Positions 4,251 through 28,159 of a stretch of DNA of 30,028 bases are shown one piece after another; within the stretch, counting starts at the first letter, position 1, and the number at the start of each line of letters is the position of its first letter. Position numbers and translations under genes: made by a program. This DNA is from a virus (taxonomy: Duplodnaviria > Caudoviricetes): positions 1 to 30,028 of IMG/VR virus record IMGVR_UViG_3300035494_000035; one strand, written 5' to 3'. The notes beneath the pieces were generated by a model, which searched no databases, had not been told where the DNA came from, and saw only the letters and a list, made by a program, of their open reading frames with translations.

Positions 4251-4964
4251 TTAAAATAAACTTTTCACTGCATTGCCCATTTTGGAAACAATATCTGCTA
4301 TTTCATTATTTAGTCCACCACCAAGATTACCTTTTCCAAATCCTGGCTTCCCTCTTCCGATGAAATCTCTCTGTGCATTATCAACTGCTTGTCTGATTTG
4401 GTGTGCAGGTATGATGTAATGCTCAACAGTATCACCAGTGAATGATACACTATACTGCATAATACCAGCAGATTCATACGAATAATTGATTGGTGATATA
4501 CCAGTAGGGAAATACCCAATGTATCGACTAAAATGAATGTCATCACCAGTAGAAGATAATCTCACAATCTTAATATCTCTTTTGTAAGCGGCTGGTGGAT
4601 AGTATAATCCATTACTATCAACTATAGAACTCATCCAACAGTTGAAGTAATCCAGTGTCAATCCATCTTCCATTTCATCAATCTTGATGGTGATGTTTCC
4701 AATGTCATTATGGGTTGCAGTGTAGAAGAAACTTGAATTAAGTGTGTTCTTCTTTGTTTCCAGTGTTGGATTTGGTGCTTCAATTGATGTGATTCTGCTT
4801 GATAGGTCATCCAACTCAGTTCCACTTCTCTGTTCACATGCACCAATTCTTGGATATGGACTATTTGCTGGTTGAACTAAAGATGGCAACTCAACTCTCC
4901 ACATATATTCCATTTGTGGGTTTTGTGTCTTCTTGCGCTCAACTGCTTTCAATATCTGAGACAT
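4251..4964 (-). CDS. Tail-tube-fold protein (gp19/gp54-like tube initiator paralog)
   Basis: NPQMEYMWRVEL, YFNCWMSSI, YKRDIKI, GYFPTGISPINYSY and YSVSFTGD motifs align with the neighbouring tube protein. 1 nt TAATG overlap with the upstream gene. Confidence 0.7.
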   Translation of the reverse strand: MSQILKAVERKKTQNPQMEYMWRVELPSLVQPANSPYPRIGACEQRSGTELDDLSSRITSIEAPNPTLETKKNTLNSSFFYTATHNDIGNITIKIDEMEDGLTLDYFNCWMSSIVDSNGLYYPPAAYKRDIKIVRLSSTGDDIHFSRYIGYFPTGISPINYSYESAGIMQYSVSFTGDTVEHYIIPAHQIRQAVDNAQRDFIGRGKPGFGKGNLGGGLNNEIADIVSKMGNAVKSLF

Positions 4965-5545
4965 TATTTCATTTCCCTTTTAGTAAAATGGAACATAACA
5001 TCGAATGTTAATTCACCAGACTCACCATAACTCAACGATGCTTCCGTAATCTCATATGGATAACACTTCTTGAATTTAAATGTTTGTGTGTTCAATAAAT
5101 TGCTATTATCTTTAAGATTCAGTGTTATGTCTCGGTAGTATGTCTCTGGCAGAGCTTTCAAATTCTCTTCACCATATTGACAAAGTTCAAACCAATCATT
5201 AAAGAATCGGTAAGCATCAAGTGCTTGGTTATCCCAAAACGTAACTCGGAAAATTCTTGGAGAAGTATCACGACCCGTATAAGAATACTCAACACCCGCA
5301 TGGTATCTCTTGATTGATTCTTGAACTCTCGGTGGGATTGCGGTTGCTTTGGCAAAGTATCTAAGATTTCTTCCCTTATTGCTACCTGTTTGTGGGTCAC
5401 TGAACTCAACCTCCCACATATAGGCACGCTGAATCTCTTGAGCAGATGACATCGCAATATCAACAACATCAGCAATTTGTCTACCCAAATCAGGACTAGC
5501 TCTTCTTAGTAATTCCTTACCCTTGTTTATGATTCCCAAATCCAT
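4964..5545 (-). CDS. Tail-tube-fold protein (gp19/gp48/gp54-like paralog)
   Basis: QRAYMWEVEF, GRDTSPRIFRVTFWD, YRFFNDW and CYPYEITEASLSY motifs. Start placed at ATG 5545 because of a GGAG RBS. Confidence 0.72.
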   Translation of the reverse strand: MDLGIINKGKELLRRASPDLGRQIADVVDIAMSSAQEIQRAYMWEVEFSDPQTGSNKGRNLRYFAKATAIPPRVQESIKRYHAGVEYSYTGRDTSPRIFRVTFWDNQALDAYRFFNDWFELCQYGEENLKALPETYYRDITLNLKDNSNLLNTQTFKFKKCYPYEITEASLSYGESGELTFDVMFHFTKREMK

Positions 5546-5570
5546 ACAAATCTCCAATTAGCATCAATAG

Positions 5571-5578
5571 TATTTATT
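5571..5578 (-). promoter_or_regulatory. Late promoter variant AATAAATA
   Basis: AATAAATACTATT lies between a terminator and the next RBS, in the same context as other late promoters here. Confidence 0.6.
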
Positions 5579-5584
5579 GGATAC

Positions 5585-5606
5585 AAAAAAGCCCCTAAAA
5601 AGGGGC
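5585..5606 (-). terminator. Intrinsic terminator after tail tube gene
   Basis: GCCCCT-TTTT-AGGGGC followed by T6 on the minus strand. Confidence 0.8.
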
Positions 5607-5637
5607 AAACTTCCAACTAGAAACTCAAAATTATTTA

Positions 5638-6141
5638 TTATTCTGCATAGTGCTCATCGTATGAGAAGGTCACTGCAATCTTAGCATGGTCACTTGCTGA
5701 ATAATCCAAAGAAATCTCACCGATAGAGGTAGGATATACTTTGGTCAAACGATGTGTACCAGAAAGGGTTGCAGAATCAGCCTTAAACATTTTGATGCGA
5801 AGTTCAGCCGCCAAAAGGCTACGATATGCACCGCCACCTAAAGTCTCATCCAATGCACCGTTAATCCAGTTATTGAAGAATGAATATACATTGCGGTCTT
5901 CATCATCATAGAAGTTTACGGTAACTGTATGAGGTGATGCATCACGCCCTGGATAGATTGTCTTACGACCTTTGAAGTTCACTTCAATAGTTTCAATTGA
6001 TTTCTCTGGAATAGAAACAGTCTCAACACGTTGAGTTAAGATTGGCTTAGTACCAGAAACAGTTGAACCTAGTAACTCAACTTCATACTCAAAAGCTCTT
6101 TGTGGATTATCCATACCACGAATATCATTAATAGTAGCCAT
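5638..6141 (-). CDS. gp19: Major tail tube protein, T4 gp19-like
   Basis: 167 aa with SIPEKSIETIEVNFKGRKTIYPGR, FFNNW, VYPTSIGEISLDY and VTFSYD motifs. Downstream of the sheath, with its own late promoter and terminator. Confidence 0.88.
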   Translation of the reverse strand: MATINDIRGMDNPQRAFEYEVELLGSTVSGTKPILTQRVETVSIPEKSIETIEVNFKGRKTIYPGRDASPHTVTVNFYDDEDRNVYSFFNNWINGALDETLGGGAYRSLLAAELRIKMFKADSATLSGTHRLTKVYPTSIGEISLDYSASDHAKIAVTFSYDEHYAE

Positions 6142-6184: not shown

Positions 6185-6195
6185 ACTTTCTTCAG

Positions 6196-6227
6196 AAATA
6201 AAAAAGCCCCAATTAAGGGGCTTTTTT
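6196..6227. terminator. Intrinsic terminator; 27 bp direct-repeat copy 1
   Basis: GCCCC-AATTAA-GGGGC with A and T tracts on both sides. 6196-6222 is identical to 7957-7983. Confidence 0.82.
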
Positions 6228-7884
6228 ATTTCTGCAAAGTAAACTTCAAAGAGCCTGAGTCATATACTCGAAAGAATCCGTGGTTATTCATGTTTTTGTG
6301 CTCAGATATATCTTGGTCAAAATTTTCCAAAATGTTTGGTAGTCTATGTTTCATTGCTTGGTAACGGCTTAATACCATTCCATTGCTATTATAATACAAA
6401 TAATTCGGAGGAGTATACCCTTCAAATGTGAATCCATTTTTAGAGTAAACATCACCATGACTATGCCCATAACTTGCAAATGTTTTAATCACATCCCATT
6501 CATTATTTTTTAAAAAGAATTTCAAAAGTTTACTAAACCCACCAACAACGTGTTTCGAAGTTGCGTACCTAGAAATTTCATATGTTTTGCTATTTTTTAT
6601 TTTTTGCATACAAAGCAAAGCAACCATCTCATCTCCGAAAAATAGTCCAATATTGGAGGTGCTTCGAATTTTTCCTTGCAAATGATTATTCTCTAAAAAT
6701 TCCATAGCCAATTTGGAAGGAATGTCGGCTTTAACTTTGCAATTTCTTGCGTAAACCTTATCTTTACTAATTCCCAATTTGTGACGTATCATTCGTTTGA
6801 TTATATCTTTTTTGTTACTATCATCCCACTCATGTTGCCATATATGCATCAACAGAATTCCACGTTCCATACAGGCACTTGATTTATTTTTGTGGTAATC
6901 CTTTTCCTTAAAATTTTCTGAGTGCCAGTATAGACCATTGAATTCTATCGCAAAATTCTTTTCTGGTATATAAATGTCTAATTCTTTCCCACCTAATACA
7001 TTCCTATCCGAAGTTTTTATAGTTAAGTCTGGGGAAATGTCTTTAATGAATTCAACAACTTCATTTTCTCCAATACTACTTTTTGTCGGTGAAGATAAAC
7101 CAAGCCTAGCCATTTTTGCATGGATAGGTGATACTGTATACCCCAATGCGCGTGATACCATCTTTGGATAAACCAGTTCTTCACACAACTGTTTAAACTT
7201 TTCATCATCTTCCCAAATGGATAATGCAGTGTTCGATTTTGTAAGTTTTGATTCGTGAGTTACCCCATATTGTTTTAGAAAATTTTTCTTTCGAGACTCT
7301 ACTACCTTCTCTTTTATTTGTGGGTCATTCATCGGGTGTCCGTCATATTTCTTAGCGAAGGTTTCCTTTATTTTATTTCTACATTCTGGTGTTGATATTC
7401 TCCACTCGCCATTCTGCGTTTTTAAGGATTTTTCTTTTATTTCATCAACTTGCATGACAGATGGTTTCCCATATTTTTTTAGTATAGCGTTCTTGTACTC
7501 GTTCTTTCCACTTTCTGTTCGCATATTGTGGTCGCCATATCTATCTATGGTTGTAGCTTTTCTCTTTTCTATTGTTTCGGAAGATTTTGAAGCACATAGT
7601 CTTGAACAAAAATCAGAAAAACGGTAAGAATCGTACACACCATTTTTATCTTCATTCTGTCTAATAGAAGAGTGAGACTTACCGCATTTTTTGCACAATG
7701 GCAATTCATTTATATCGTTCATGATGCAATAAATGCGAAATGTCGTGGTGACATTTTCTGGAAGAAATCTAGTGTAATCGTAAATTCTTTTTTTAATATC
7801 AGCAAGATTCTTGGATTTACCAAAACTTTTTCCTTCTGGGAATCCTAGTCTTTCTAACTCTTTTAATATTTCTTCTTTTTCCAT
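6226..7884 (-). CDS. Hef-like freestanding endonuclease (Zn ribbon, KYG repeats, Vsr/PD-(D/E)xK-like nuclease, Mom-like GNAT C-terminus), copy 1
   Basis: CKKC and CSRLC; repeated T-x-x-x-x-YG units; ELDIYIPEKNFAIEFNGLYWHS; C-terminal NHLQG, EISRY, GGFSKLL, TFAS, GDVYSKNGF. Inserted between sheath and tube. Confidence 0.8.
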   Translation of the reverse strand: MEKEEILKELERLGFPEGKSFGKSKNLADIKKRIYDYTRFLPENVTTTFRIYCIMNDINELPLCKKCGKSHSSIRQNEDKNGVYDSYRFSDFCSRLCASKSSETIEKRKATTIDRYGDHNMRTESGKNEYKNAILKKYGKPSVMQVDEIKEKSLKTQNGEWRISTPECRNKIKETFAKKYDGHPMNDPQIKEKVVESRKKNFLKQYGVTHESKLTKSNTALSIWEDDEKFKQLCEELVYPKMVSRALGYTVSPIHAKMARLGLSSPTKSSIGENEVVEFIKDISPDLTIKTSDRNVLGGKELDIYIPEKNFAIEFNGLYWHSENFKEKDYHKNKSSACMERGILLMHIWQHEWDDSNKKDIIKRMIRHKLGISKDKVYARNCKVKADIPSKLAMEFLENNHLQGKIRSTSNIGLFFGDEMVALLCMQKIKNSKTYEISRYATSKHVVGGFSKLLKFFLKNNEWDVIKTFASYGHSHGDVYSKNGFTFEGYTPPNYLYYNSNGMVLSRYQAMKHRLPNILENFDQDISEHKNMNNHGFFRVYDSGSLKFTLQK

Positions 7885-7908: not shown

Positions 7909-7939
7909 TATTTATAGCCAATTAGAAGCAAAATGTCAA
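7909..7939 (-). promoter_or_regulatory. Hybrid promoter TTGACA-N17-TATAAATA
   Basis: Perfect -35, 17 nt spacer, and a -10 that is also the T4 late consensus. Confidence 0.8.
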
Positions 7940-7983: not shown

Positions 7984-8005
7984 AAAACCTAATCGAAGGT
8001 TTTTA

Positions 8006-9475
8006 TTATCCTAACTGAACACCAGTTGGGGTGATGATAGTAGAAATACGGATAAATTCTGCGGTGCGAGTTGGCTTCACATAAACATCAACCAACAATT
8101 GGTTGTTATCAATCACAAACGGTGTGTTCAATGTTTCTGATGTATCAACGAAGAACTCATACAAACCGCCTTGAATCTGTACGTTTTCCAAGAAAGATGA
8201 CAACAAGAAGTTGATGTTGTCGCGGGTTGATACAGTGTTAGGTTCAAATACAAATGGTTGCAATGCCTCAGACATGCGCTGATTAATCCATAGGATTGAG
8301 TTCACGACGTTGAAACGGTCAAGAGCACTTGCTTGTACCTGTAAAGTTTTTTGACCCCATACAACGGCACTAGCACCGCCATAAGTAGTAACAGGGTTTA
8401 TACCTGCGACATACAATTGGTCACGCTCACCTTCTGTCAATACTTTAGATACACCAAGTGCATTTGGAATAACACCACGCTGTAAACCAGCAGGCGCATC
8501 CCAGCGATTAGCAACTTCTACGGTGTACTCAAATACAGCCGCAACGTCACCAGATGGTGGAATTGTCACTTCTTTATCGTTATATTGGTCATAGATGCGA
8601 ATCCAACCGCCATACAGACCACCAAATTCGGTATTAGCCGCTAGGGTGTCTTTACGATAAGTAATCATTGCCGCAACGTCTTGAGCGGTGTCTTCTGGAA
8701 TATCCAAAATTGCAACAGCGTCTTTACGTGCTTCAGCAACAGCCAACATTTTTGTTTGAACTTCAGCAGATGCCCAACCAGCATTGATTAACAAGTTAGC
8801 AGGAACCGAGTTGGTGTTCAAGAAATCATCCCATGCAGTAACAATTGCACCAGAAGTAGGAGCAACAGTATCATCAGCACCACCAGACAATGTAATGTCA
8901 GTAGCAAAGTCATATGGGTCAGTTACAGCAGGGTTATCAGTAACACGGATATACAATGAACGACTATTGATTACATTTTCAATGAAGATGTTGTTACCGA
9001 AACCATTCTTAGCATTCGGGTCACGAGACACTTCATATTCTTCAACAACTTCGCCACCAACTTCAACGATAACATTGAATACACCAGCAGGTAAGTCAGC
9101 ATTCTCTTCCAATTTAACAACAATATCATTACCCCATGCACCTGGGTTAGCCGCATCAACGATTAAATGGTCTTCGGTATCAATACCGTCAGTCCAAGTT
9201 AATGTACCAGTAGCCGCAACTGCATCATTGATTACACGTTTAACAGATAAGATACCTGCACGGTTCAAAAAACGCAAAGCCGCATACATTGATGGATTAT
9301 CACTAGATGGAATACCATACAAGTCGATGAACTCTTTTGCCGATGTTACAGTAACAACATCAGTTGAACCTTTTTTAGATGAAATGACAACGCCACCAGC
9401 CAAAAGACCACCAGCATTGACAACGAAAGATTTGTCTACGATTCTATCATAGACTCCAGCACTAGCTCCGAACAT
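8006..9475 (-). CDS. gp18: Contractile tail sheath protein, T4 gp18-like
   Basis: AGVYDRIVDKS, NPGAWGN, PPSGDVA, WDAPAGLQRG, RDQLYVAGINPV, VWGQKTL, FVFEPN and VKPTRTAEFI motifs. Start placed at ATG 9475 (GGAG RBS). Confidence 0.95.
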   Translation of the reverse strand: MFGASAGVYDRIVDKSFVVNAGGLLAGGVVISSKKGSTDVVTVTSAKEFIDLYGIPSSDNPSMYAALRFLNRAGILSVKRVINDAVAATGTLTWTDGIDTEDHLIVDAANPGAWGNDIVVKLEENADLPAGVFNVIVEVGGEVVEEYEVSRDPNAKNGFGNNIFIENVINSRSLYIRVTDNPAVTDPYDFATDITLSGGADDTVAPTSGAIVTAWDDFLNTNSVPANLLINAGWASAEVQTKMLAVAEARKDAVAILDIPEDTAQDVAAMITYRKDTLAANTEFGGLYGGWIRIYDQYNDKEVTIPPSGDVAAVFEYTVEVANRWDAPAGLQRGVIPNALGVSKVLTEGERDQLYVAGINPVTTYGGASAVVWGQKTLQVQASALDRFNVVNSILWINQRMSEALQPFVFEPNTVSTRDNINFLLSSFLENVQIQGGLYEFFVDTSETLNTPFVIDNNQLLVDVYVKPTRTAEFIRISTIITPTGVQLG

Positions 9476-9501: not shown

Positions 9502-10299
9502 TTAATCAGAATATTTCCAAAAATACCCATACGCAGATTTTGACCTCCCACTTAAACAGTTGGTGATGGCAGTTCCACGTTCTTTACCAAAAGAACTCGA
9601 TGCTTCTTTAATTGAATCGAATTCTTTTAATACTTCTCCAGTTTCCTTACATATCATCTGAACCTTTTTTGAACAAGGACTACCATTTTCGGTAATCCAA
9701 TCGTTTAGTCTCGATATGATGTTGTTATCTTTTGCGAATTTTCTTCGTTTCTCTCTGTATTCTTCTGAGGTGTAATTAGCTTTTAATGTGCCGTCTGGAT
9801 TCCTCAAATTTTTCTTTATGCGTTCTCTGGATTCAGCACTATGCTTCTTACCTTTAAATGGATTTTCATTATCCTCAAAGTATTTCTTTAGAGAATTTGA
9901 TATTTTTTCTCTTTGTTCAATCGGCATTACAAAAGACGGACAATCATCGGATTGTCTCCTAATGTTATAACCGTTATCATCAAAAGGGTTTAGCAACTTC
10001 ATGTAGTGTTCTTCTCTTTCAGAAAGTTCAGATTCATCGCAAAATTCCAAAACTGCAAAAACAAAGCTATCTACACCATATTTGTTCTTAGCATTTGTTA
10101 ATTTTGTTCCATTATATCGTTGATAATCTGGCTGATAGTGTTCCTTTAAACGATTTTTAAGTCTTCTGGTTTTACCAACATATATTTTTTGGTTTACCTT
10201 ATTGACCAGCAAATAGATTGCAGGGACGTTATCAAAAGATTTTCTCATGAAGTTTTCGTATGTTTTATACACATTGGATTCGTGAATGAACATCTTCAC
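9502..10299 (-). CDS. Freestanding GIY-YIG homing endonuclease (Seg-like) with NUMOD3/NUMOD1-type DNA-binding tail
   Basis: AIYLLVNKVNQKIYVGKT-x5-RLKEH, LSEREEHY, GYNI, NPFKGKKHSAESRERI and FDSIKEAS...ITNCLSGRSKSAYGYFWKY. AAGGAG RBS before GTG. Confidence 0.9.
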   Translation of the reverse strand: MKMFIHESNVYKTYENFMRKSFDNVPAIYLLVNKVNQKIYVGKTRRLKNRLKEHYQPDYQRYNGTKLTNAKNKYGVDSFVFAVLEFCDESELSEREEHYMKLLNPFDDNGYNIRRQSDDCPSFVMPIEQREKISNSLKKYFEDNENPFKGKKHSAESRERIKKNLRNPDGTLKANYTSEEYREKRRKFAKDNNIISRLNDWITENGSPCSKKVQMICKETGEVLKEFDSIKEASSSFGKERGTAITNCLSGRSKSAYGYFWKYSD

Positions 10300-10315
10300 T
10301 TCTCCTTAATATTGA

Positions 10316-10528
10316 TTATTCTTCAGATTGTTCAGCTTTCTTTGCCGAACGTGTTGAAGTTTTCTTTTGTTCAGGTTTCGTATCAATATCCTTAACACGA
10401 ATGCCCTCGTCTACACCAATCACTTCTTTGTCAGTTACAATGGATTGACCCCTCATTAGGAATTGAGTTGATTTATCCTTAAATGTAACCATACGAAGTT
10501 TGTCAGTCATGTTTGTATACTTTTTCAT
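10316..10528 (-). CDS. Small hypothetical late protein leading the sheath operon
   Basis: 70 aa ORF from ATG 10528 with a purine-rich RBS, downstream of a late-promoter-like GATAAATA. Confidence 0.65.
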   Translation of the reverse strand: MKKYTNMTDKLRMVTFKDKSTQFLMRGQSIVTDKEVIGVDEGIRVKDIDTKPEQKKTSTRSAKKAEQSEE

Positions 10529-10566
10529 ATCTCTCACTCTTGTTTTAGATTAAAAGTCTTCATAGA

Positions 10567-10875: not shown

Positions 10876-10904
10876 TTGACTTTTTGTGACATAAATGTTA
10901 GAAT
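10876..10904 (+). promoter_or_regulatory. Sigma70-type promoter TTGACT-N17-TAGAAT with extended -10 TG
   Basis: Near-consensus elements about 40 nt upstream of the gp55-like gene. Confidence 0.78.
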
Positions 10905-11666: not shown

Positions 11667-12695
11667 ATGAAGATTATTGTAATGGGCGATACACATTATG
11701 GCGAGAAATCGAATGACCCAAAATTCAATGGGTCATTGGTTGACTTATTTGAGTGGACAGTAGATATTGCCAAGGAAAGAAATATTGATACAATGGTACA
11801 TCTTGGTGATTATTATCACAACCGTAATGCTATCAATGTACAAACCATCAACTATGGTATTGATGGTGCTAAAATCTTGGCAGAGCACTTTGACCGAGAG
11901 AATGTCTATGTGCTATTAGGAAACCATGACATTTACTTCAAAGATAGACTAGACACCAACAGTCTTTCAATCATTGAGCCATATGTTACCATTGTTGATT
12001 CATTGACAGCCATTGATAATGTTTTATTAACTCCTTGGATTGTTGATGGTGAGCAATGGGATAAACTGGTCAAAGAGTCAAAGAAATATGATTTCCTTAT
12101 GGGACACTTTGAGTTCAATGGCTTCAAGATGAATGACTACTATGTGATGGAACATGGCAACAGTCATAAAGAATTGAAGAACTGTAAGAAAGTGTTATCT
12201 GGTCACTTTCATTCTCCACAAGTCATGGACAATGTTCACTATGTTGGAACACCTATCCCAACCACCATGTCAGAAGCAAATGAGCCACACGGAATCAACA
12301 TTCTTGATACTGAGACTGGAGAGTTAGAGTTTATTGAGTATACCAAGGTAAAGGTTATCTCGATTCCTTATACCGAGATTGAATCATTGGATGACTATGA
12401 CCCAGAATATACATCAGTTCGCATTGAGTTTCCTGATGATTTGGACGATGAGACACTAATCGGTGAAGTGCAAGAGTATCTGGCTGATAAGAAATTCGAT
12501 GAAGTTAAAATCAAATACAAAGGAAACAAAGCCAAGCAACTACTTGAATCTTCTGTTGAAACGATTGAAGAAGTGGAGAATATTGACTTGGTTGTTAAGA
12601 CATTCTTGAAGGATTGTTCAAATATCGATGGGATTGACAAAGAAGTTCTCCTAAAGTATTATGATGCGGCTGTTAAGAAATCGGAGGAAAATTGA
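11667..12695 (+). CDS. gp47: Recombination nuclease subunit, gp47 (Mre11/SbcD-like)
   Basis: Metallophosphoesterase motifs GDTH, HLGDYYH, GNHD, MGH and SGHFH. Confidence 0.93.
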   Translation: MKIIVMGDTHYGEKSNDPKFNGSLVDLFEWTVDIAKERNIDTMVHLGDYYHNRNAINVQTINYGIDGAKILAEHFDRENVYVLLGNHDIYFKDRLDTNSLSIIEPYVTIVDSLTAIDNVLLTPWIVDGEQWDKLVKESKKYDFLMGHFEFNGFKMNDYYVMEHGNSHKELKNCKKVLSGHFHSPQVMDNVHYVGTPIPTTMSEANEPHGINILDTETGELEFIEYTKVKVISIPYTEIESLDDYDPEYTSVRIEFPDDLDDETLIGEVQEYLADKKFDEVKIKYKGNKAKQLLESSVETIEEVENIDLVVKTFLKDCSNIDGIDKEVLLKYYDAAVKKSEEN

Positions 12696-15038: not shown

Positions 15039-15518
15039 ATGATTCTTGGTGTGGACCAATCTTTTTCGTGTACTGGGCTTTGTTTGTTTGATGGTAATGA
15101 GCACATATTCAGTACCACTCAAACAGTCCCAGACAAAGAAGATAAACTGGAAAAGTTTAAGAGGGCGAAATATATTGCCAAGGAAATCTCAGAACTTTGT
15201 ATGATACATGGTGTGACTGATGTTAGAATTGAAGGGTTAGCGATGGGTAAAGCCATCGGCAACAGTACAAGGGACTTAGCAGGACTTCAGTATGTCATTG
15301 TCAATGAACTGATGGAGAACCACCCAGAGACTTCAATCACCATCATCACACCAACAAGCCTGAAGAAGTTTGCGACAGGTAAGGGTAATGCTAAGAAAGA
15401 TGGTATGTTTGAATCTTTACCAGAGAACATTCAAGATGTGCTTATGGGATACCCAAAGACAAAAGGAAGATTTGACTTAGCCGATGCGTATTGGTTGGCT
15501 ATGTTCAAAGAAGAATAA
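15039..15518 (+). CDS. RuvC-like Holliday junction resolvase
   Basis: ILGVDQS, VRIEG, PTSLKKFATGKGNAKKD and DLADA; the acidic catalytic tetrad is intact. Confidence 0.87.
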   Translation: MILGVDQSFSCTGLCLFDGNEHIFSTTQTVPDKEDKLEKFKRAKYIAKEISELCMIHGVTDVRIEGLAMGKAIGNSTRDLAGLQYVIVNELMENHPETSITIITPTSLKKFATGKGNAKKDGMFESLPENIQDVLMGYPKTKGRFDLADAYWLAMFKEE

Positions 15519-15535
15519 ATAAAAATCACAATTTT

Positions 15536-15635
15536 TATAAATAAAGAGAAGGAGATTAGTTTTTAGCGTCCAAATCACTAAAAACAGGTGACGGGAAACC
15601 AGTCGCCACTTGTCACTCCTTCAATAGTATTTATA
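15536..15635. ncRNA. Candidate structured RNA (three-way junction) between convergent late promoters
   Basis: TATAAATA on + at 15536 and on - at 15628-15635. Closing stem GAAGGAG/CTCCTTC, hairpin GTTTTTAG/CTAAAAAC, and hairpin GGTGAC-GG-GAAA-CC-A-GTCGCC. Confidence 0.5.
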
Positions 15636-15657
15636 ACGATAAAATATAGGGAACCGA

Positions 15658-17418
15658 ATGAACCAATTAGAAATCGCAAAGAAATATGCAAAGAATGGGA
15701 TAGAAGTTTTCCCATGCAATCAAGACAAAGCTCCCATCACAAAGAACGGACACAAAAACGCCACCAGAGATATTCGTCAAATCGAAGCATGGTGGACTAA
15801 GCATCCTAATGCACTGATTGGTGCTCCTAACCAAACATTCACAATCATCGATGTTGACTGCTATGGTTTATGTGCCACTGGTCAGTTATTAACAGATAAT
15901 GCCATAAAACTTCTACACGAAGAGGGAATCTTCCGAGACGGTGTGATGAAAGTCAACACTGGTTCTGGTGGTATCCATTACTATTACAAGAAAAAAGAAG
16001 TAAAAAGGTCAACTAAGGTTTTACCAAACATCGACTTATTGAGTAATGGTGGATATTCTATTCTTCCCGACCAGAAAACCTATGTCTGCGAAACATCAAA
16101 TGAACCTTGGGAACAAATAAAACATCTCGAAGACTTGGATATGGTCAAACTGTCCATTCTTATTGATGAGAATGAGGAGTTCACCAAAGCCGCTACCTTA
16201 TTGAAGAAAGCATCCAAGGGCATGGTTTCTTATAGTAGACAATCCACAAAAGAGAACACCGCACCATCATTCACCGAGACTGAAAAGATGGAAACATTCG
16301 GTGACGGTTACAGAACATTCAATGACTATAAAGGAAATCAAGTAAAGTTTGCCTTTGAGAACAATGTGTATGAGAAGAATGAGAGAGTATACAAGTTCAA
16401 TCCAAATGCGAAGCTTCTGAACGAGAACAGAAAGTTCGTTTTAAGACGTGGTGAAACAACACAAGAAATGTTGATGTCTTTATTCTTCAATATTGAGATT
16501 CAGAAGATTGTTGGTGAGTATCTTGGATTGAATGTTCCGCATATCAATCACTCAACAAGACAACGCTCGATTCTACCTAATCACAATGATAGGAGACCAT
16601 CGATGTCTGTTCGCTGGGTTGATGGTAATCATTTGGTTGCTAGAGACCACTCGAACCACTTCAGTGATAAGTATAACCAAATCGACTATGATGTGATTCG
16701 ACTATACACCACACAAGTTTATAAAACTGCCACACCAAAATTCTCAACAGGTGAGAGAAATATGTGGTGGCTAAAGCTGTTATATGATGCGGGTGTGCTT
16801 GATGTGTCTGAGCTTGAATATAAGTTCCACTCAGAAGAATATGTTCACCACCTTAACGATTCAGAGAGAAGCGTATTAGAAGGCTATCGACTATTGACCA
16901 TGTTCAAGTCATCGTACAAGGAATATGATGGCTACACTGCATTCTCAGACAGATTCAGTTCTGGTTGGTGCAATGTATCAATCACATCAGCAAACAGAGC
17001 AAAACATTCCCTAATCGAACAGGGATTCATTGCTTTTGTTGATTCTGTGAACTGTGATAAGAATAATGAAAAATTTAACAGAAATGTGACAAGAGGTTTA
17101 AGACCAATCACAACCGAAGACAACTTCGATGAACTGATTCAGAAATCTTTTGAGAATGAGGAAGTATATCAATCAAACCGTAAAAAGCTGAAAGAAGAGC
17201 AAAAGAAAGAAGAATCAGAAGAAAAAGAAAATAAAAAGGTAGACATTGAAACCAAGTTGAAAAATGTTAAAATTGCTGGTGAAAAGTTTGCTACCCGTTT
17301 GAACAAAAAGAATAAAGTTGTTCACATTGAAGACTATATGATACCAAGTGAACAAAAACCAGATAAATACTATCATCAAGAACAACCACTTATGGTTAAA
17401 GGAGATAGAGACCCATGA
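15658..17418 (+). CDS. Bifunctional DNA primase/polymerase (Prim-Pol, AEP superfamily) with C-terminal winged-helix-like region
   Basis: YAKNGIEVFPC, KAP, NATRD, WW, IIDVD, TGSGGIHYYY and IDLLSNGGYSILP motifs. Later LPNHNDRRPSMSV and an HTH-like AFSDRFSSGWCNVSITSANRAKHSLIEQGFI. Confidence 0.85.
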   Translation: MNQLEIAKKYAKNGIEVFPCNQDKAPITKNGHKNATRDIRQIEAWWTKHPNALIGAPNQTFTIIDVDCYGLCATGQLLTDNAIKLLHEEGIFRDGVMKVNTGSGGIHYYYKKKEVKRSTKVLPNIDLLSNGGYSILPDQKTYVCETSNEPWEQIKHLEDLDMVKLSILIDENEEFTKAATLLKKASKGMVSYSRQSTKENTAPSFTETEKMETFGDGYRTFNDYKGNQVKFAFENNVYEKNERVYKFNPNAKLLNENRKFVLRRGETTQEMLMSLFFNIEIQKIVGEYLGLNVPHINHSTRQRSILPNHNDRRPSMSVRWVDGNHLVARDHSNHFSDKYNQIDYDVIRLYTTQVYKTATPKFSTGERNMWWLKLLYDAGVLDVSELEYKFHSEEYVHHLNDSERSVLEGYRLLTMFKSSYKEYDGYTAFSDRFSSGWCNVSITSANRAKHSLIEQGFIAFVDSVNCDKNNEKFNRNVTRGLRPITTEDNFDELIQKSFENEEVYQSNRKKLKEEQKKEESEEKENKKVDIETKLKNVKIAGEKFATRLNKKNKVVHIEDYMIPSEQKPDKYYHQEQPLMVKGDRDP

Positions 17419-17924
17419 CCCCTTTTACGCTTTACAAGATGCCAGTAGACATCCAGACATATGAGATAATCTCAAACTTCTGTACGGATTATAAAATCGA
17501 GAACGTGCCTAAGCGCGAGAATATGTATTTTGAAATCATCGGAGTTGAAGGACTCCATGCTCCTCAAAAAGTAGAAGCTGGTATTTCATATTTGGCTAAT
17601 GAACTTTACCTTGCTGAAGTCGAATCTGTTTCTGGTAACGGAACACTTCTAATGGTTGGTGCAACTTCTCCAGCCCTTGAAGAATTGGCAATGGAATATT
17701 ATGATGAGTTTGATGGTGAAGGTACGATTTCTGAAGAACCATCGGTATCAGTAATCATTTCGTATGACTACGAAAAAGGTAACGATGACTTAACATTCTT
17801 AGAAATGAAACTGAAAGAGTACACGAATGATGTGTTAAAGTTCTCAGAAATTAAGACACAATACACCACAGATGAAGACCTTGTTGACTTTATTTTGGAT
17901 GGTAGAGAACCAATTCAGAATTGA
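17415..17924 (+). CDS. Acidic protein resembling T4 57B/Acb1 (2H phosphoesterase fold) but lacking both HxT/S motifs
   Basis: TYEIISNFCTDYKIENVPKRENMYFEII and GTLLMVGATSPALEEL...VSVIISYDY parallel the 57B segments as recalled (LRVPNPVPREKIHSTI; STLVLVLDSEYL...PHITLSYNV). ATGA overlap with Prim-Pol. Confidence 0.5.
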   Translation: MTPFTLYKMPVDIQTYEIISNFCTDYKIENVPKRENMYFEIIGVEGLHAPQKVEAGISYLANELYLAEVESVSGNGTLLMVGATSPALEELAMEYYDEFDGEGTISEEPSVSVIISYDYEKGNDDLTFLEMKLKEYTNDVLKFSEIKTQYTTDEDLVDFILDGREPIQN

Positions 17925-26579: not shown

Positions 26580-26610
26580 TTGACATAAAATTATTCATTT
26601 GGTATAAATA
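26580..26610 (+). promoter_or_regulatory. Hybrid promoter TTGACA-N17-TATAAATA
   Basis: Perfect -35, 17 nt spacer, and late consensus as -10. Confidence 0.8.
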
Positions 26611-26643
26611 CTTCTAAGTTATTATGAAAACAGGGAAACACAA

Positions 26644-28125
26644 ATGAATGACAAGGACATGTATAAAAACAAAGAATGGCTAGCTAAACAAATCAAAACA
26701 AAAAAATTACAAGAAATCGGAGAGATGTGTGGAGTTGGCAAACAGTGTATCAGTAAATGGGCTAAGAAGTTCGGCATCAGAGTAAAGTATAAGACCCCTC
26801 CCATAGAAAGTGATGGTATATATGCAAATAGAGAATGGTTAGAGAATGAGTTAAAAACCAAAACACACCAACAAGTAGCTGATGAGTGTGGGGTGACACA
26901 ATCTTTGATTACTAGATACGCAAAAAGATTCAAAATCGAAGCGAAGCACAATAAAGTTCCTGAAAACATTCAAGAACTTTTTGAAGATGTCGAAGAGTTG
27001 CAAAAAATATATGATACTATGACTTCAGAAGAGGTAATGTCTAAATATGGCGTTTCTAAAACTTATTACTACTCTAAGTTGAAAAAGCATAACATCGAAA
27101 AAACTAAAACACAAATAGACCCGTCTATTAAAGAGAAACTTATAGATAAGACGTGGTTACTATCACAATACGAAACAAAATCTACAGAGGTTATTGCGGA
27201 TGAACTTGGTGTTACTGGTAAAACAGTATGCATGGCGATGAAAGAGCATGGTATTGAATTTACATATGATAATAAAATCACGAAAGGTGTAGCAGAAATA
27301 GCGGATTACTTGGAAAGCCTTGGGGTGGAATATAAGTTGAATGATAGGACTATTCTATCCCCAAAGGAATTGGACATCTTTATTCCATCTTCCAATCTTG
27401 CGATAGAATATAATGGAACATTTTGGCATTCGGATGTGATTAAAAAAGAACAAAAGTACCATCAAAATAAATCATTGGGTTGTTATCATAAGGGAATTAA
27501 ACTACTCCATATTTGGGAGTATGATTGGACTAATAGAGAAAAACGAGATGTCATATTGAAAAAGATAAAGCATATGTGCGGTTTTGGTGAAAAGGTGTAT
27601 GCTAGAAATTGTGCGATTGCTGAAATCGGCAATAAGGAAGCAATAGATTTTCACAATAAAAACCACATACAGGGTGGAAAACATTCCAAACATAATATCG
27701 CGTTGAAATGTGATGATGAAATAGTAGCAGTTATATCAATTTCAAAATCCAAAGGAATACCTCTTGGCTTTGAAATTGATAGATTCTCCACAAGTAAATC
27801 TGTCATAGGTGGATTCAGTAAGATGTTGAGAGGGTTCACTGACAATAACGAATGGGGAACGATTAATACTTTTGCTTCGTTAGATTACGGATACGGTGAT
27901 ATGTATCGTAAATGTGGATTTGAAGAAGTAAAAATAACCAGACCAAACTACACATACCACAAAGGTAATATGAAGTTGAGCAGACAGCAAACAATGAAAG
28001 GGAATCTCCATAAGATTTTAGAAAATTTTGATGAGACTCTTAGTGAATATGAGAATATGATGAACAACGGGTTTATGCGGGTCTTCGATTCTGGAAGCGT
28101 TAAGTACACCCTGAACAAGAAATAA
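26644..28125 (+). CDS. Hef-like endonuclease/Mom-like fusion, copy 3, with four tandem HTH-like repeats
   Basis: Four repeats such as NKEWL...IGEMCGV...AKKFGI; ELDIFIPSSNLAIEYNGTFWHS; NHIQG, EIDRFS, GGFSKML, TFAS, GDMYRKCGF. Confidence 0.8.
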   Translation: MNDKDMYKNKEWLAKQIKTKKLQEIGEMCGVGKQCISKWAKKFGIRVKYKTPPIESDGIYANREWLENELKTKTHQQVADECGVTQSLITRYAKRFKIEAKHNKVPENIQELFEDVEELQKIYDTMTSEEVMSKYGVSKTYYYSKLKKHNIEKTKTQIDPSIKEKLIDKTWLLSQYETKSTEVIADELGVTGKTVCMAMKEHGIEFTYDNKITKGVAEIADYLESLGVEYKLNDRTILSPKELDIFIPSSNLAIEYNGTFWHSDVIKKEQKYHQNKSLGCYHKGIKLLHIWEYDWTNREKRDVILKKIKHMCGFGEKVYARNCAIAEIGNKEAIDFHNKNHIQGGKHSKHNIALKCDDEIVAVISISKSKGIPLGFEIDRFSTSKSVIGGFSKMLRGFTDNNEWGTINTFASLDYGYGDMYRKCGFEEVKITRPNYTYHKGNMKLSRQQTMKGNLHKILENFDETLSEYENMMNNGFMRVFDSGSVKYTLNKK

Positions 28126-28128
28126 AAT

Positions 28129-28159
28129 TTGACGTAAAATCATTCATTTGTTATAAATA
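28129..28159 (+). promoter_or_regulatory. Hybrid promoter TTGACG-N17-TATAAATA
   Basis: 28125-28159 matches 26576-26610 at 32 of 35 positions. Confidence 0.78.

What the first reader, a model, noticed from the sequence alone, without database searches (positions are those of the whole stretch)
15535..15636. Three-way-junction RNA candidate enclosed by convergent perfect late promoters
Seen: TATAAATA on + (15536) faces TATAAATA on - (15628-15635). Between them are a closing stem GAAGGAG (15548-15554)/CTCCTTC (15616-15622), a hairpin GTTTTTAG/CTAAAAAC, and GGTGAC-GG-GAAA-CC-A-GTCGCC with a GNRA loop and a G-U pair, which favours the + strand as the folded RNA. GTGAC can alternatively pair with GTCAC just before the closing stem, suggesting a switch. 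The ends form an imperfect inverted repeat (TTATAAATA-N4/5-GAAGGAG). I could not match it to a riboswitch or ribozyme I know. Inference: a structured leader or sRNA with an antisense partner controlling Prim-Pol, or a single-strand priming signal.
Basis: partly seen in the sequence, partly recalled or inferred. Interest (0 to 1): 0.7.

Follow-up and report, generated by a model that had tools for sequence, protein, structure and literature searches.

The report
Nuclease antisense cassette captured by Prim-Pol
This 100-base element belongs to a family of folded phage RNAs, not found in Rfam, that mostly sit in front of selfish DNA-cutting genes; here it sits in front of a DNA-copying gene instead, and it likely makes a small late RNA from the opposite strand whose loop is predicted to pair with that gene's ribosome-binding site and damp its translation.

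Summary
In detail: two facing TATAAATA boxes enclose a three-stem fold (z -6.4) in the ruvC/Prim-Pol gap of a T4-like phage related to Alishewanella phage Slickus01. A covariance model built from 10 other elements scores it at 48.2 bits on the minus strand (best of 84 anchor-matched decoys: 29.1). In the 30-member family, 12 of 14 pairs covary. One loop is complementary to the ribosome-binding site (RBS) of the gene behind it (permutation p<1e-5 in two sets). Of 28 other members, 23 precede homing nucleases. The window and its closest fetchable relative precede Prim-Pol, each loop matching its own RBS although synonymous sites are near saturation. Best reading: a late antisense sRNA cassette captured from a nuclease that damps Prim-Pol translation (0.55). 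No RNA data exist. The loop also fits a nuclease RBS elsewhere in the window slightly better. The GNRA hairpin is window-specific and the switch is unpopulated. The scan found this family before on other DNA (e1-5881731); my look-ups found no note on a Prim-Pol-linked form.

The parts
15628..15635 (-). Late-promoter box for the predicted small RNA; the RNA would start at G15622 (T4 spacing recalled, not tested)
   Evidence: a 13-nt stretch covering the box and the first transcribed base is identical in relative L011
15548..15622 (-). Predicted ~75-nt three-stem small RNA: P1 - GAC - hairpin 1 - hairpin 2 - UAA - P1', followed by a U-rich tail to about 15537
   Evidence: model R1 48.2 bits, E 1.2e-5, built without this sequence; covariation
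15548..15554 (-). P1 3' strand; pairs with 15616-15622 (7 Watson-Crick pairs; L011 also has a 7-pair P1, of different sequence)
15616..15622 (-). P1 5' strand
15585..15612 (-). Hairpin 1 in the family register (6 WC pairs, 1 G.U, 1 A.C at the family's non-WC position, plus the base pair C15612-G15585); 10-nt loop 15603-15594
   Evidence: this register lies 2.1-2.5 kcal/mol above the minus-strand MFE
15594..15601 (-). Anti-RBS 8-mer, predicted to pair with 15649-15656 of the Prim-Pol mRNA (8 contiguous pairs, 2 of them G.U)
   Evidence: duplex -11.3 kcal/mol; longest run among 12 family RBS windows
15559..15585 (-). Hairpin 2 (9-10 pairs with a U.G, 7-nt loop 15575-15569); its apex is the only part that differs in near-identical phage contigs
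15587..15607 (+).
15536..15543 (+). Late-promoter box facing Prim-Pol; its transcript would carry the complement of the small RNA as leader
15649..15660 (+). Prim-Pol ribosome-binding site and ATG (15658)
15658..17418 (+). Prim-Pol gene (586 aa; PF09250 at residues 7-141); syntenic in all related loci examined; predicted target
15039..15518 (+). ruvC-like resolvase, last gene of the gp55-gp47-gp46-ruvC run upstream
10876..10904 (+). Sigma-70-like promoter match (10 of 12, extended -10) ahead of gp55; possible source of early read-through mRNA for Prim-Pol
   Evidence: consensus match only (42 found vs 30 in shuffles)
26633..26639 (+). RBS of the free-standing homing endonuclease 26644-28125; 7 WC pairs with the loop; rival target in trans

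Best explanation
The element is a copy of a portable phage cassette with two facing late-promoter boxes, and it likely makes a ~75-nt three-stem RNA from the minus strand whose first loop is predicted to pair with the Prim-Pol ribosome-binding site and would lower Prim-Pol translation late in infection. SHOWN: family membership, covariation, strand asymmetry in the family, loop-to-RBS matching, and a nuclease behind most members but Prim-Pol behind this one. INFERRED: transcription from both boxes by gp55, a start at G15622, an end in the U-rich tail, pairing in vivo, and repression. INFERRED origin: a homing nuclease with its cassette landed in the ruvC/Prim-Pol gap, where 7 of 9 other relatives carry an ~88-aa ORF. 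The nuclease ORF was then lost and the cassette was kept on Prim-Pol.
For: Model R1 (10 members, window and L011 left out) gives window 48.2 bits and L011 51.9, both on the minus strand; the best of 84 decoys with the same anchors scores 29.1. Alignment A8 (30 distinct rows): 96.6% of cells paired, 12 of 14 pairs changed on both sides, slid controls 28-51%. G.U 16 vs A.C 5 on the minus strand in 12 members. One hairpin-1 position is G.U in 24 of 32 rows and never Watson-Crick. Loop vs own RBS: 6.2 vs 4.2 WC pairs in 12 members, and 6.7 vs 4.1 in 15 members found later by the model, including within one genome, 6.9 vs 4.3; 0 of 100,000 permutations reach these. Internal loop/RBS mismatches: 7 of G.U type, 0 of the reverse type, 4 transversions. 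The window loop pairs 8 nt with its own RBS (best of 12); the L011 loop pairs 7 nt with its own (best of 12); cross-pairing is weaker (-5.5 and -4.8 vs -11.3 and -7.8). Four-fold sites between window and L011 are near random (0.23-0.38 vs 0.28-0.30), yet both cassettes are intact. Near-identical contigs differ only at 15567-15577.
Against: There are no RNA data. Within the window the Prim-Pol RBS ranks 3rd of 26 for the loop (-11.3), behind the nuclease at 26644 (-12.4) and portal (-12.0); in L011's phage it ranks 4th of 17. In this copy hairpin 1 is more stable on the + strand (-12.1 vs -6.9) and has A.C, not G.U, at the family position. On the minus strand the family register is not the MFE, and the anti-RBS 8-mer is only 31-99% unpaired. 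The whole body folds better on the sRNA strand in only 8 of 12 members. The A-to-G bias between loop and RBS could come from selection for a G-rich RBS, and 3 of the 7 wobble cases are near-identical copies from one genome. Only 2 Prim-Pol-linked copies could be read. The model contains the promoter columns used in my searches, and A8 is fitted to the model's structure. The strain differences rest on two runs of one study at depth under 5.
Confidence: 0.55

Rival explanations
1. The minus-strand RNA is made, but its main targets are in trans: the free-standing nuclease at 26644 and other genes with a GGGAA-type RBS. Prim-Pol is a bystander or one of several targets.
For: The loop has 7 WC pairs with the RBS at 26633-26639 and the best duplex of 26 (-12.4); genes at 4964(-) and 23248 also score -10.7 and -10.1. 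The family normally serves nucleases. No other copy was found in the window or in G001, whose portal is identical.
Against: In the family the match is to the gene directly behind the promoter, even among copies in one genome. In L011 both loops match the Prim-Pol RBS (second hairpin -10.3).
Confidence: 0.15
2. The cassette is kept only as a late promoter and structured 5' leader of Prim-Pol, acting in cis on the + strand. The minus box is inherited from a lost nuclease.
For: The + strand fold is more stable here (z -6.4 vs -4.0). Dassa et al. report a nuclease hairpin left in front of a host gene part after nuclease loss (PMC2677866, passage).
Against: The + fold leaves most of the RBS open (15651-15660 are 84-99% unpaired; 15649-15650 are mostly paired). 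The minus box with the following bases is the best-kept part between window and L011. A loop identical to the RBS cannot pair with it in cis.
Confidence: 0.15
3. The minus promoter works by transcriptional interference or by long antisense read-through into ruvC, gp46, gp47 and gp55, shutting the early operon; the fold is secondary.
For: No canonical terminator was found between 11643 and 17008 on the minus strand. The boxes face each other 84 nt apart.
Against: This does not explain stem covariation or the loop-RBS match. A U-rich tail follows P1'.
Confidence: 0.1
4. It is a single-strand DNA priming signal or origin for the adjacent Prim-Pol.
For: It is adjacent to Prim-Pol, and it folds as DNA (z -4.9 and -4.7).
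Against: 23 of 28 other members precede nucleases; 9 of 10 related Prim-Pol loci lack it; G.U bias and RBS matching point to RNA.
Confidence: 0.04

Closest known systems
IS200 art200 antisense sRNA (PMC4513863; abstract and outline read)
   Same: sRNA encoded opposite the 5' UTR of a mobile-element enzyme gene; blocks translation initiation by base pairing.
   Different: Here the RNA does not overlap the RBS (it starts 27 nt short of it) and carries a separate anti-RBS loop. Both promoters are T4-type late boxes, the fold is a three-way junction, and this copy precedes a primase-polymerase.
Late promoter plus RBS-sequestering hairpin of T4/Aeh1 genes e, soc, 49, I-TevI, mobE (PMC3014915, passages)
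   Same: TATAAATA box and RNA structure in the leader of homing nucleases; control at translation initiation.
   Different: Those hairpins act in cis on the mRNA and hide the RBS. Here the leader holds a copy of the RBS, not its complement, and there is a second, opposing box. The review (2010) states that no small trans-acting regulatory RNA had been functionally characterised from T4.
5' UTR hairpins with TATAAATA ahead of free-standing GIY-YIG and Vsr-like nucleases (PMC2677866, passages)
   Same: Same gene context; one locus keeps the hairpin in front of a host gene part after the nuclease was lost.
   Different: Described as mRNA hairpins; 'antisense' occurs 0 times in the main text. I did not see Figure 4A or Supplementary Figure S4, so overlap with this family is not excluded.
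Plasmid counter-transcribed RNAs that limit a Rep protein (repABC, pT181, R1 CopA; recalled, search listing only)
   Same: Small antisense RNA from the leader of a replication gene.
   Different: The setting is a lytic T4-like phage with late promoters. A relative has a gp61-like primase beside its helicase, so Prim-Pol is probably accessory. No copy-number function is shown.
Nuclease-linked three-stem phage RNA family (earlier scan note e1-5881731, unchecked AI note)
   Same: Three stems between facing late boxes; loop matches the nuclease RBS. I rebuilt and tested such a family here.
   Different: This copy has no nuclease behind it.

Membership tests
Three-stem late-promoter cassette (defined here, model R1) | Facing ATAAATA boxes around a 65-85-nt body | tested here: met
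   partly by construction, since the search patterns used these boxes
Three-stem late-promoter cassette (defined here, model R1) | P1 - GAC - hairpin 1 - hairpin 2 - UAA/UUA - P1' on the strand opposite the gene | tested here: met
   48.2 bits vs at most 29.1 for 84 decoys; one extra U on each side of the junction
Three-stem late-promoter cassette (defined here, model R1) | Hairpin-1 loop complementary to the RBS of the gene behind the promoter | tested here: met
   8 contiguous pairs, best of 12 family RBS windows by length, second by energy; 3rd of 26 within the window
Three-stem late-promoter cassette (defined here, model R1) | Homing-nuclease gene directly behind the cassette (usual context, 23 of 28) | tested here: not met
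   Prim-Pol ATG follows 23 nt after the box, with no room for a nuclease remnant
Cis-encoded antisense sRNA (art200 / RNA-OUT / ctRNA type) | Own promoter opposite the target leader | tested here: inconclusive
   Perfect box, kept in L011; activity untested
Cis-encoded antisense sRNA (art200 / RNA-OUT / ctRNA type) | Discrete RNA expressed; pairing represses translation | not testable with these tools
   No RNA run among the listed holders
Cis-encoded antisense sRNA (art200 / RNA-OUT / ctRNA type) | RNA overlaps the target RBS by perfect complementarity | tested here: not met
   Predicted RNA spans 15622-15548; the RBS is at 15649-15656
T4-type RBS-sequestering hairpin (I-TevI, mobE, gene e) | RBS buried in an mRNA hairpin whose 5' arm holds the late promoter | tested here: not met
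   RBS mostly unpaired in the folded late leader; the stems lie downstream of the + box. A longer early transcript was not folded.
Any Rfam 15 family (riboswitch, ribozyme, c4, tRNA) | Score at or above the gathering threshold | tested here: not met
   0 matches in the window; only tRNAs in 12 member loci
ssDNA priming signal for Prim-Pol | Co-occurs with Prim-Pol | tested here: not met
   Absent at 9 of 10 related Prim-Pol loci; present at 28 loci without Prim-Pol behind it

The most novel reading that the evidence does not exclude
A T4-like phage lineage has domesticated the self-restraint module of homing nucleases: a late-sigma small RNA with a fixed three-way-junction scaffold and an exchangeable anti-RBS loop now switches off a conserved replication enzyme, replacing a small protein gene at that spot. 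It may also reach the phage's own nuclease genes in trans. That would make the family a natural programmable translational repressor of T4-like phages.
Probability: 0.35. Interest if true: 0.75.

Novelty: new variant of a known kind. Interest (0 to 1): 0.55.

Why it matters
A 2010 review of T4 post-transcriptional control says no small trans-acting regulatory RNA had been characterised in T4 (PMC3014915, passage). This family gives a directly testable candidate: loop and RBS change together across about 30 copies, so a loop swap and a compensatory RBS change test the mechanism at once. The Prim-Pol-linked copy would show a regulatory part moving from a selfish gene to a conserved phage gene, and it can be tested without expressing a nuclease. 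The score is held down because the scan already noted the family, no RNA has been seen, and only two Prim-Pol-linked copies could be read.

Tried and rejected
Rfam: nothing. blastn of the element and of L075 against phage records: only short chance matches, or none. Pattern with the window's own closing stem: 2 unrelated loci. Single-protein scans gave one new useful locus (L031) and no new Prim-Pol-linked copy; genome contigs gave no Prim-Pol relative. Hammerhead, HDV/theta, hairpin-ribozyme, tRNA-like and purine-riboswitch readings were compared by eye with recalled consensus and dropped: no catalytic core, wrong topology, no conserved loop-loop pairing. A UAA/GAN-type junction is a recalled resemblance only; the paper search found 0 occurrences of the term in the 8 papers listed. 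A CsrA-site reading was dropped because the match extends to 7-10 nt and some loops have no GGA. The 17-codon minus-strand ORF was dropped as not kept in L011. The exact complement of the hairpin-2 loop in gp47 (expected 0.0125 copies) was dropped because that loop differs in near-identical contigs. RNAcofold did not form the loop-RBS duplex; it cannot model kissing loops, so this counts neither way. No RNA holder was listed. Runs X3-X8 gave almost no cover of the element. A trimmed MAFFT alignment recovered only P1, so the model was built with promoter flanks. PF13155 found no primase in 4 relatives; this was a false negative, since PHROGs finds one. No PDB sequence match for Prim-Pol; the Atlas gave only leads under its bar, HTH/Rep_O-like; the AlphaFold job had not finished. 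Rows dropped: L254 (1 of 101 loci) not given; L265 and L268 (E above 0.01) left out of the family; L273 and L278 (no ORF called) and L266 (same hairpin as L263) left out of the n=15 test; start sites of L271 and L281 were miscalled there, which works against the result. The L191 P1 count is a parsing failure.

Full report
Setting. The window is part of a T4-like myophage: tail sheath and tubes, gp55, gp47, gp46, ruvC, portal, protease, major capsid protein, and five free-standing homing nucleases. The closest named phages are Alishewanella phages Slickus01 and Slicko01 (capsid 67% identical). The element lies in the 139-nt gap between ruvC (ends 15518) and a Prim-Pol gene (starts 15658).

Observation. 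TATAAATA occurs 10 times against 2.2 expected. The fold has z -6.4 on the + strand and -4.0 on the - strand. There is no Rfam match. The proposed switch pairing has probability 0.000 on the + strand.

Same locus in relatives. I read the gap in 10 related lineages. Seven carry a conserved ~88-aa ORF, two carry nothing, and one, L011 (Prim-Pol 55-58% identical), carries a similar element. L011 keeps the minus-strand box with the following bases and a 7-pair closing stem of different sequence. Window and L011 fall in one clade, 100/100, with P0002 and P0004, whose DNA I could not fetch. Four-fold degenerate sites of three neighbouring genes are near random identity between window and L011 (0.34, 0.23, 0.38 vs 0.28-0.30), so an unselected relic should have decayed, if the two copies share descent. 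Contigs from runs X9 and X10 match 15482-15635 and 15482-15761, with all differences (3 substitutions, 3 bases missing) inside 15567-15577, the apex of hairpin 2 (one study, depth under 5).

A family. Pattern scans gave 10 further distinct elements. On the strand opposite the gene they read: box, about 5 nt, P1, GAC, hairpin 1, hairpin 2, UAA, P1', box complement. A model built from these 10 alone finds the window at 48.2 bits and L011 at 51.9, both on the minus strand, and nothing else in 214 kb. The best of 84 loci that share the search anchors but were not members scores 29.1. In five virus records the model found 18 more copies, 15 of them in G006. It found none in 5 records of the Slickus group or in G001. 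Over 30 distinct rows, 96.6% of cells pair and 12 of 14 pairs show changes on both sides; slid controls pair at 28-51% (the alignment is fitted to the model and rows are related). Of the 28 members other than window and L011, 23 have a PHROG homing-nuclease hit directly behind them, from GIY-YIG, HNH and phrog_559 families. The other five are two unknown families, one truncated ORF, one without an ORF, and one terminase-like gene 119 nt away.

Strand. With strand-neutral scoring, enclosed G.U pairs outnumber A.C 16 to 5 on the minus-type strand (p 0.027 if independent, which they are not). One position of hairpin 1 is G.U in 24 of 32 rows and never Watson-Crick. RNAalifold gives all three stems on that strand and only the closing stem on the other. 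The window copy itself is less clear: 2 G.U to 1 A.C, hairpin 2 better on minus (-5.6 vs -2.6), hairpin 1 better on plus (-12.1 vs -6.9). The family register is 2.1-2.5 kcal/mol above the minus-strand optimum.

Loop and RBS. The lead came from an earlier scan note (e1-5881731); I tested it. Hairpin 1 pairs with its own gene's RBS better than with others': 6.2 vs 4.2 WC pairs for 12 members, 6.7 vs 4.1 for 15 of the 18 later members, and 6.9 vs 4.3 among 13 copies of one genome; 0 of 100,000 permutations reach these values. Internal mismatches between loop and RBS are 7 of the kind that gives G.U in an RNA duplex, 0 of the reverse kind, and 4 transversions; selection for a G-rich RBS could also give this bias. 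In the window, 15601-15594 on the minus strand pairs with 15649-15656 over 8 contiguous pairs; in L011 the loop pairs over 7, and its second hairpin also fits. Cross-pairing between the two is about half as strong. Against: inside the window the Prim-Pol RBS ranks 3rd of 26, behind the nuclease at 26644 and portal, and in L011's phage 4th of 17.

Mechanism. Prim-Pol mRNA can come early by read-through from a sigma-70-like site ahead of gp55 (relative L007 has such a site directly ahead of Prim-Pol) and late from the + box. Late in infection the minus box would make a ~75-nt RNA that starts at the closing stem (T4 spacing recalled) and ends in the U-rich tail. Its loop would bind the RBS, which is predicted mostly open, and block 30S loading. 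The RNA is also fully complementary to the leader, so how the two sites compete is open. Slickus01 has a gp61-like primase beside its helicase, so Prim-Pol is probably accessory, and damping it late is plausible. All steps from transcription onward are inferred. I put this at 0.55; trans targets 0.15, cis leader or relic 0.15, interference 0.10, DNA priming signal 0.04.

Known systems. It works like IS200 art200 (PMC4513863, abstract and outline only) and plasmid counter-transcripts (recalled), but the RNA does not overlap the RBS and reaches it with a copied loop. It differs from the cis hairpins of T4 genes e, I-TevI and Aeh1 mobE (PMC3014915, passages). Dassa et al. saw hairpins with TATAAATA ahead of free-standing nucleases, and one left behind after nuclease loss, with no mention of antisense (PMC2677866, passages; Figure 4A and supplement not seen, and they may show members of this family). 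Searches for a printed description returned 1, 0, 0 and 0 papers, and one search listed plasmid, repABC and sRNA-survey papers, none on phages by title; the library lacks most subscription journals. The scan's own notes describe this family and a related two-hairpin cassette in other genomes; look-ups for this sequence, for P0002 and for a Prim-Pol-linked form returned nothing.

Verdict. A real, conserved RNA element; a member of an uncatalogued nuclease-linked family; unusual in sitting on a conserved replication gene. New variant of a known kind, interest 0.55.

Noticed in passing
L059, L061, L066, L081, L125, L046 (around the pattern match); opposite sense in L103, L050: A different, two-hairpin element between facing ATAAATA boxes; one box is formed by the first codons of what look like GIY-YIG genes. 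No Rfam match for these loci and no match to model R1. It resembles the cassette in several earlier scan notes.
   Followed up: partly
window 17415-17924: This 169-aa ORF matches the C-terminal part of the single 683-aa Prim-Pol ORF of Slickus01, so the gene appears split in the window; L011 also has it as a separate ORF.
   Followed up: no
L003 6725-6991 and the same slot in L005, L006, L009, L014, L015, L016: Conserved ~88-aa ORF directly ahead of Prim-Pol, no PHROG hit for the L003 copy, not found in the window or L011. A possible Prim-Pol partner or regulator that the cassette replaced.
   Followed up: partly
window 7909-7939 (-), 26580-26610 (+), 28129-28159 (+): Three phrog_3339 nuclease genes have TTGAC(A/G) exactly 17 nt ahead of TATAAATA, a composite sigma-70/late promoter. 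None carries the three-stem cassette.
   Followed up: no
window 12437-12447: Exact 11-nt complement of the hairpin-2 loop (+ strand) inside gp47; 0.0125 copies expected. Post hoc, and the loop varies in close strains.
   Followed up: partly
window 15608-15555 (-): SD-like GAAGGAG, 6 nt, GTG and a 17-codon ORF inside the predicted RNA; not kept in L011.
   Followed up: partly
window 15567-15577 in runs X9, X10: The variant apex of hairpin 2, read from the difference table, shares 6 nt with the bases just ahead of the Prim-Pol start; in L011 the second loop also matches the RBS. Prim-Pol-linked copies may use two anti-RBS loops.
   Followed up: partly
G006 (loci L261, L263, L266, L269, L271-L282): One 213-kb virus record holds 16 copies of the cassette, all on the same strand; several sit on broken nuclease genes (L273, L277, L278).
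   Followed up: partly
L111 2501-2591, L106 around the pattern match: Other three-stem folds between facing late boxes; L111 (in a tRNA cluster) scores 32.2 bits, E 0.022; L106 (next to a GIY-YIG gene) has no match.
   Followed up: partly
L011 9146, L013 8586-8615, L016 5002-5032: Short face-to-face or overlapping ATAAATA boxes, between end-protector and portal genes in L011 and L013: facing late boxes also arise without an RNA between them.
   Followed up: no
window about 6190-6235 and 7985-8030: Long perfect hairpins (18 and 15 pairs) flank the nuclease gene 6226-7884; terminator-like.
   Followed up: no
window 4251-6141 and 9502-10537: Three tail-tube paralogues in a row; a GIY-YIG gene and a 73-aa ORF lie directly ahead of the tail sheath gene.
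   Followed up: no
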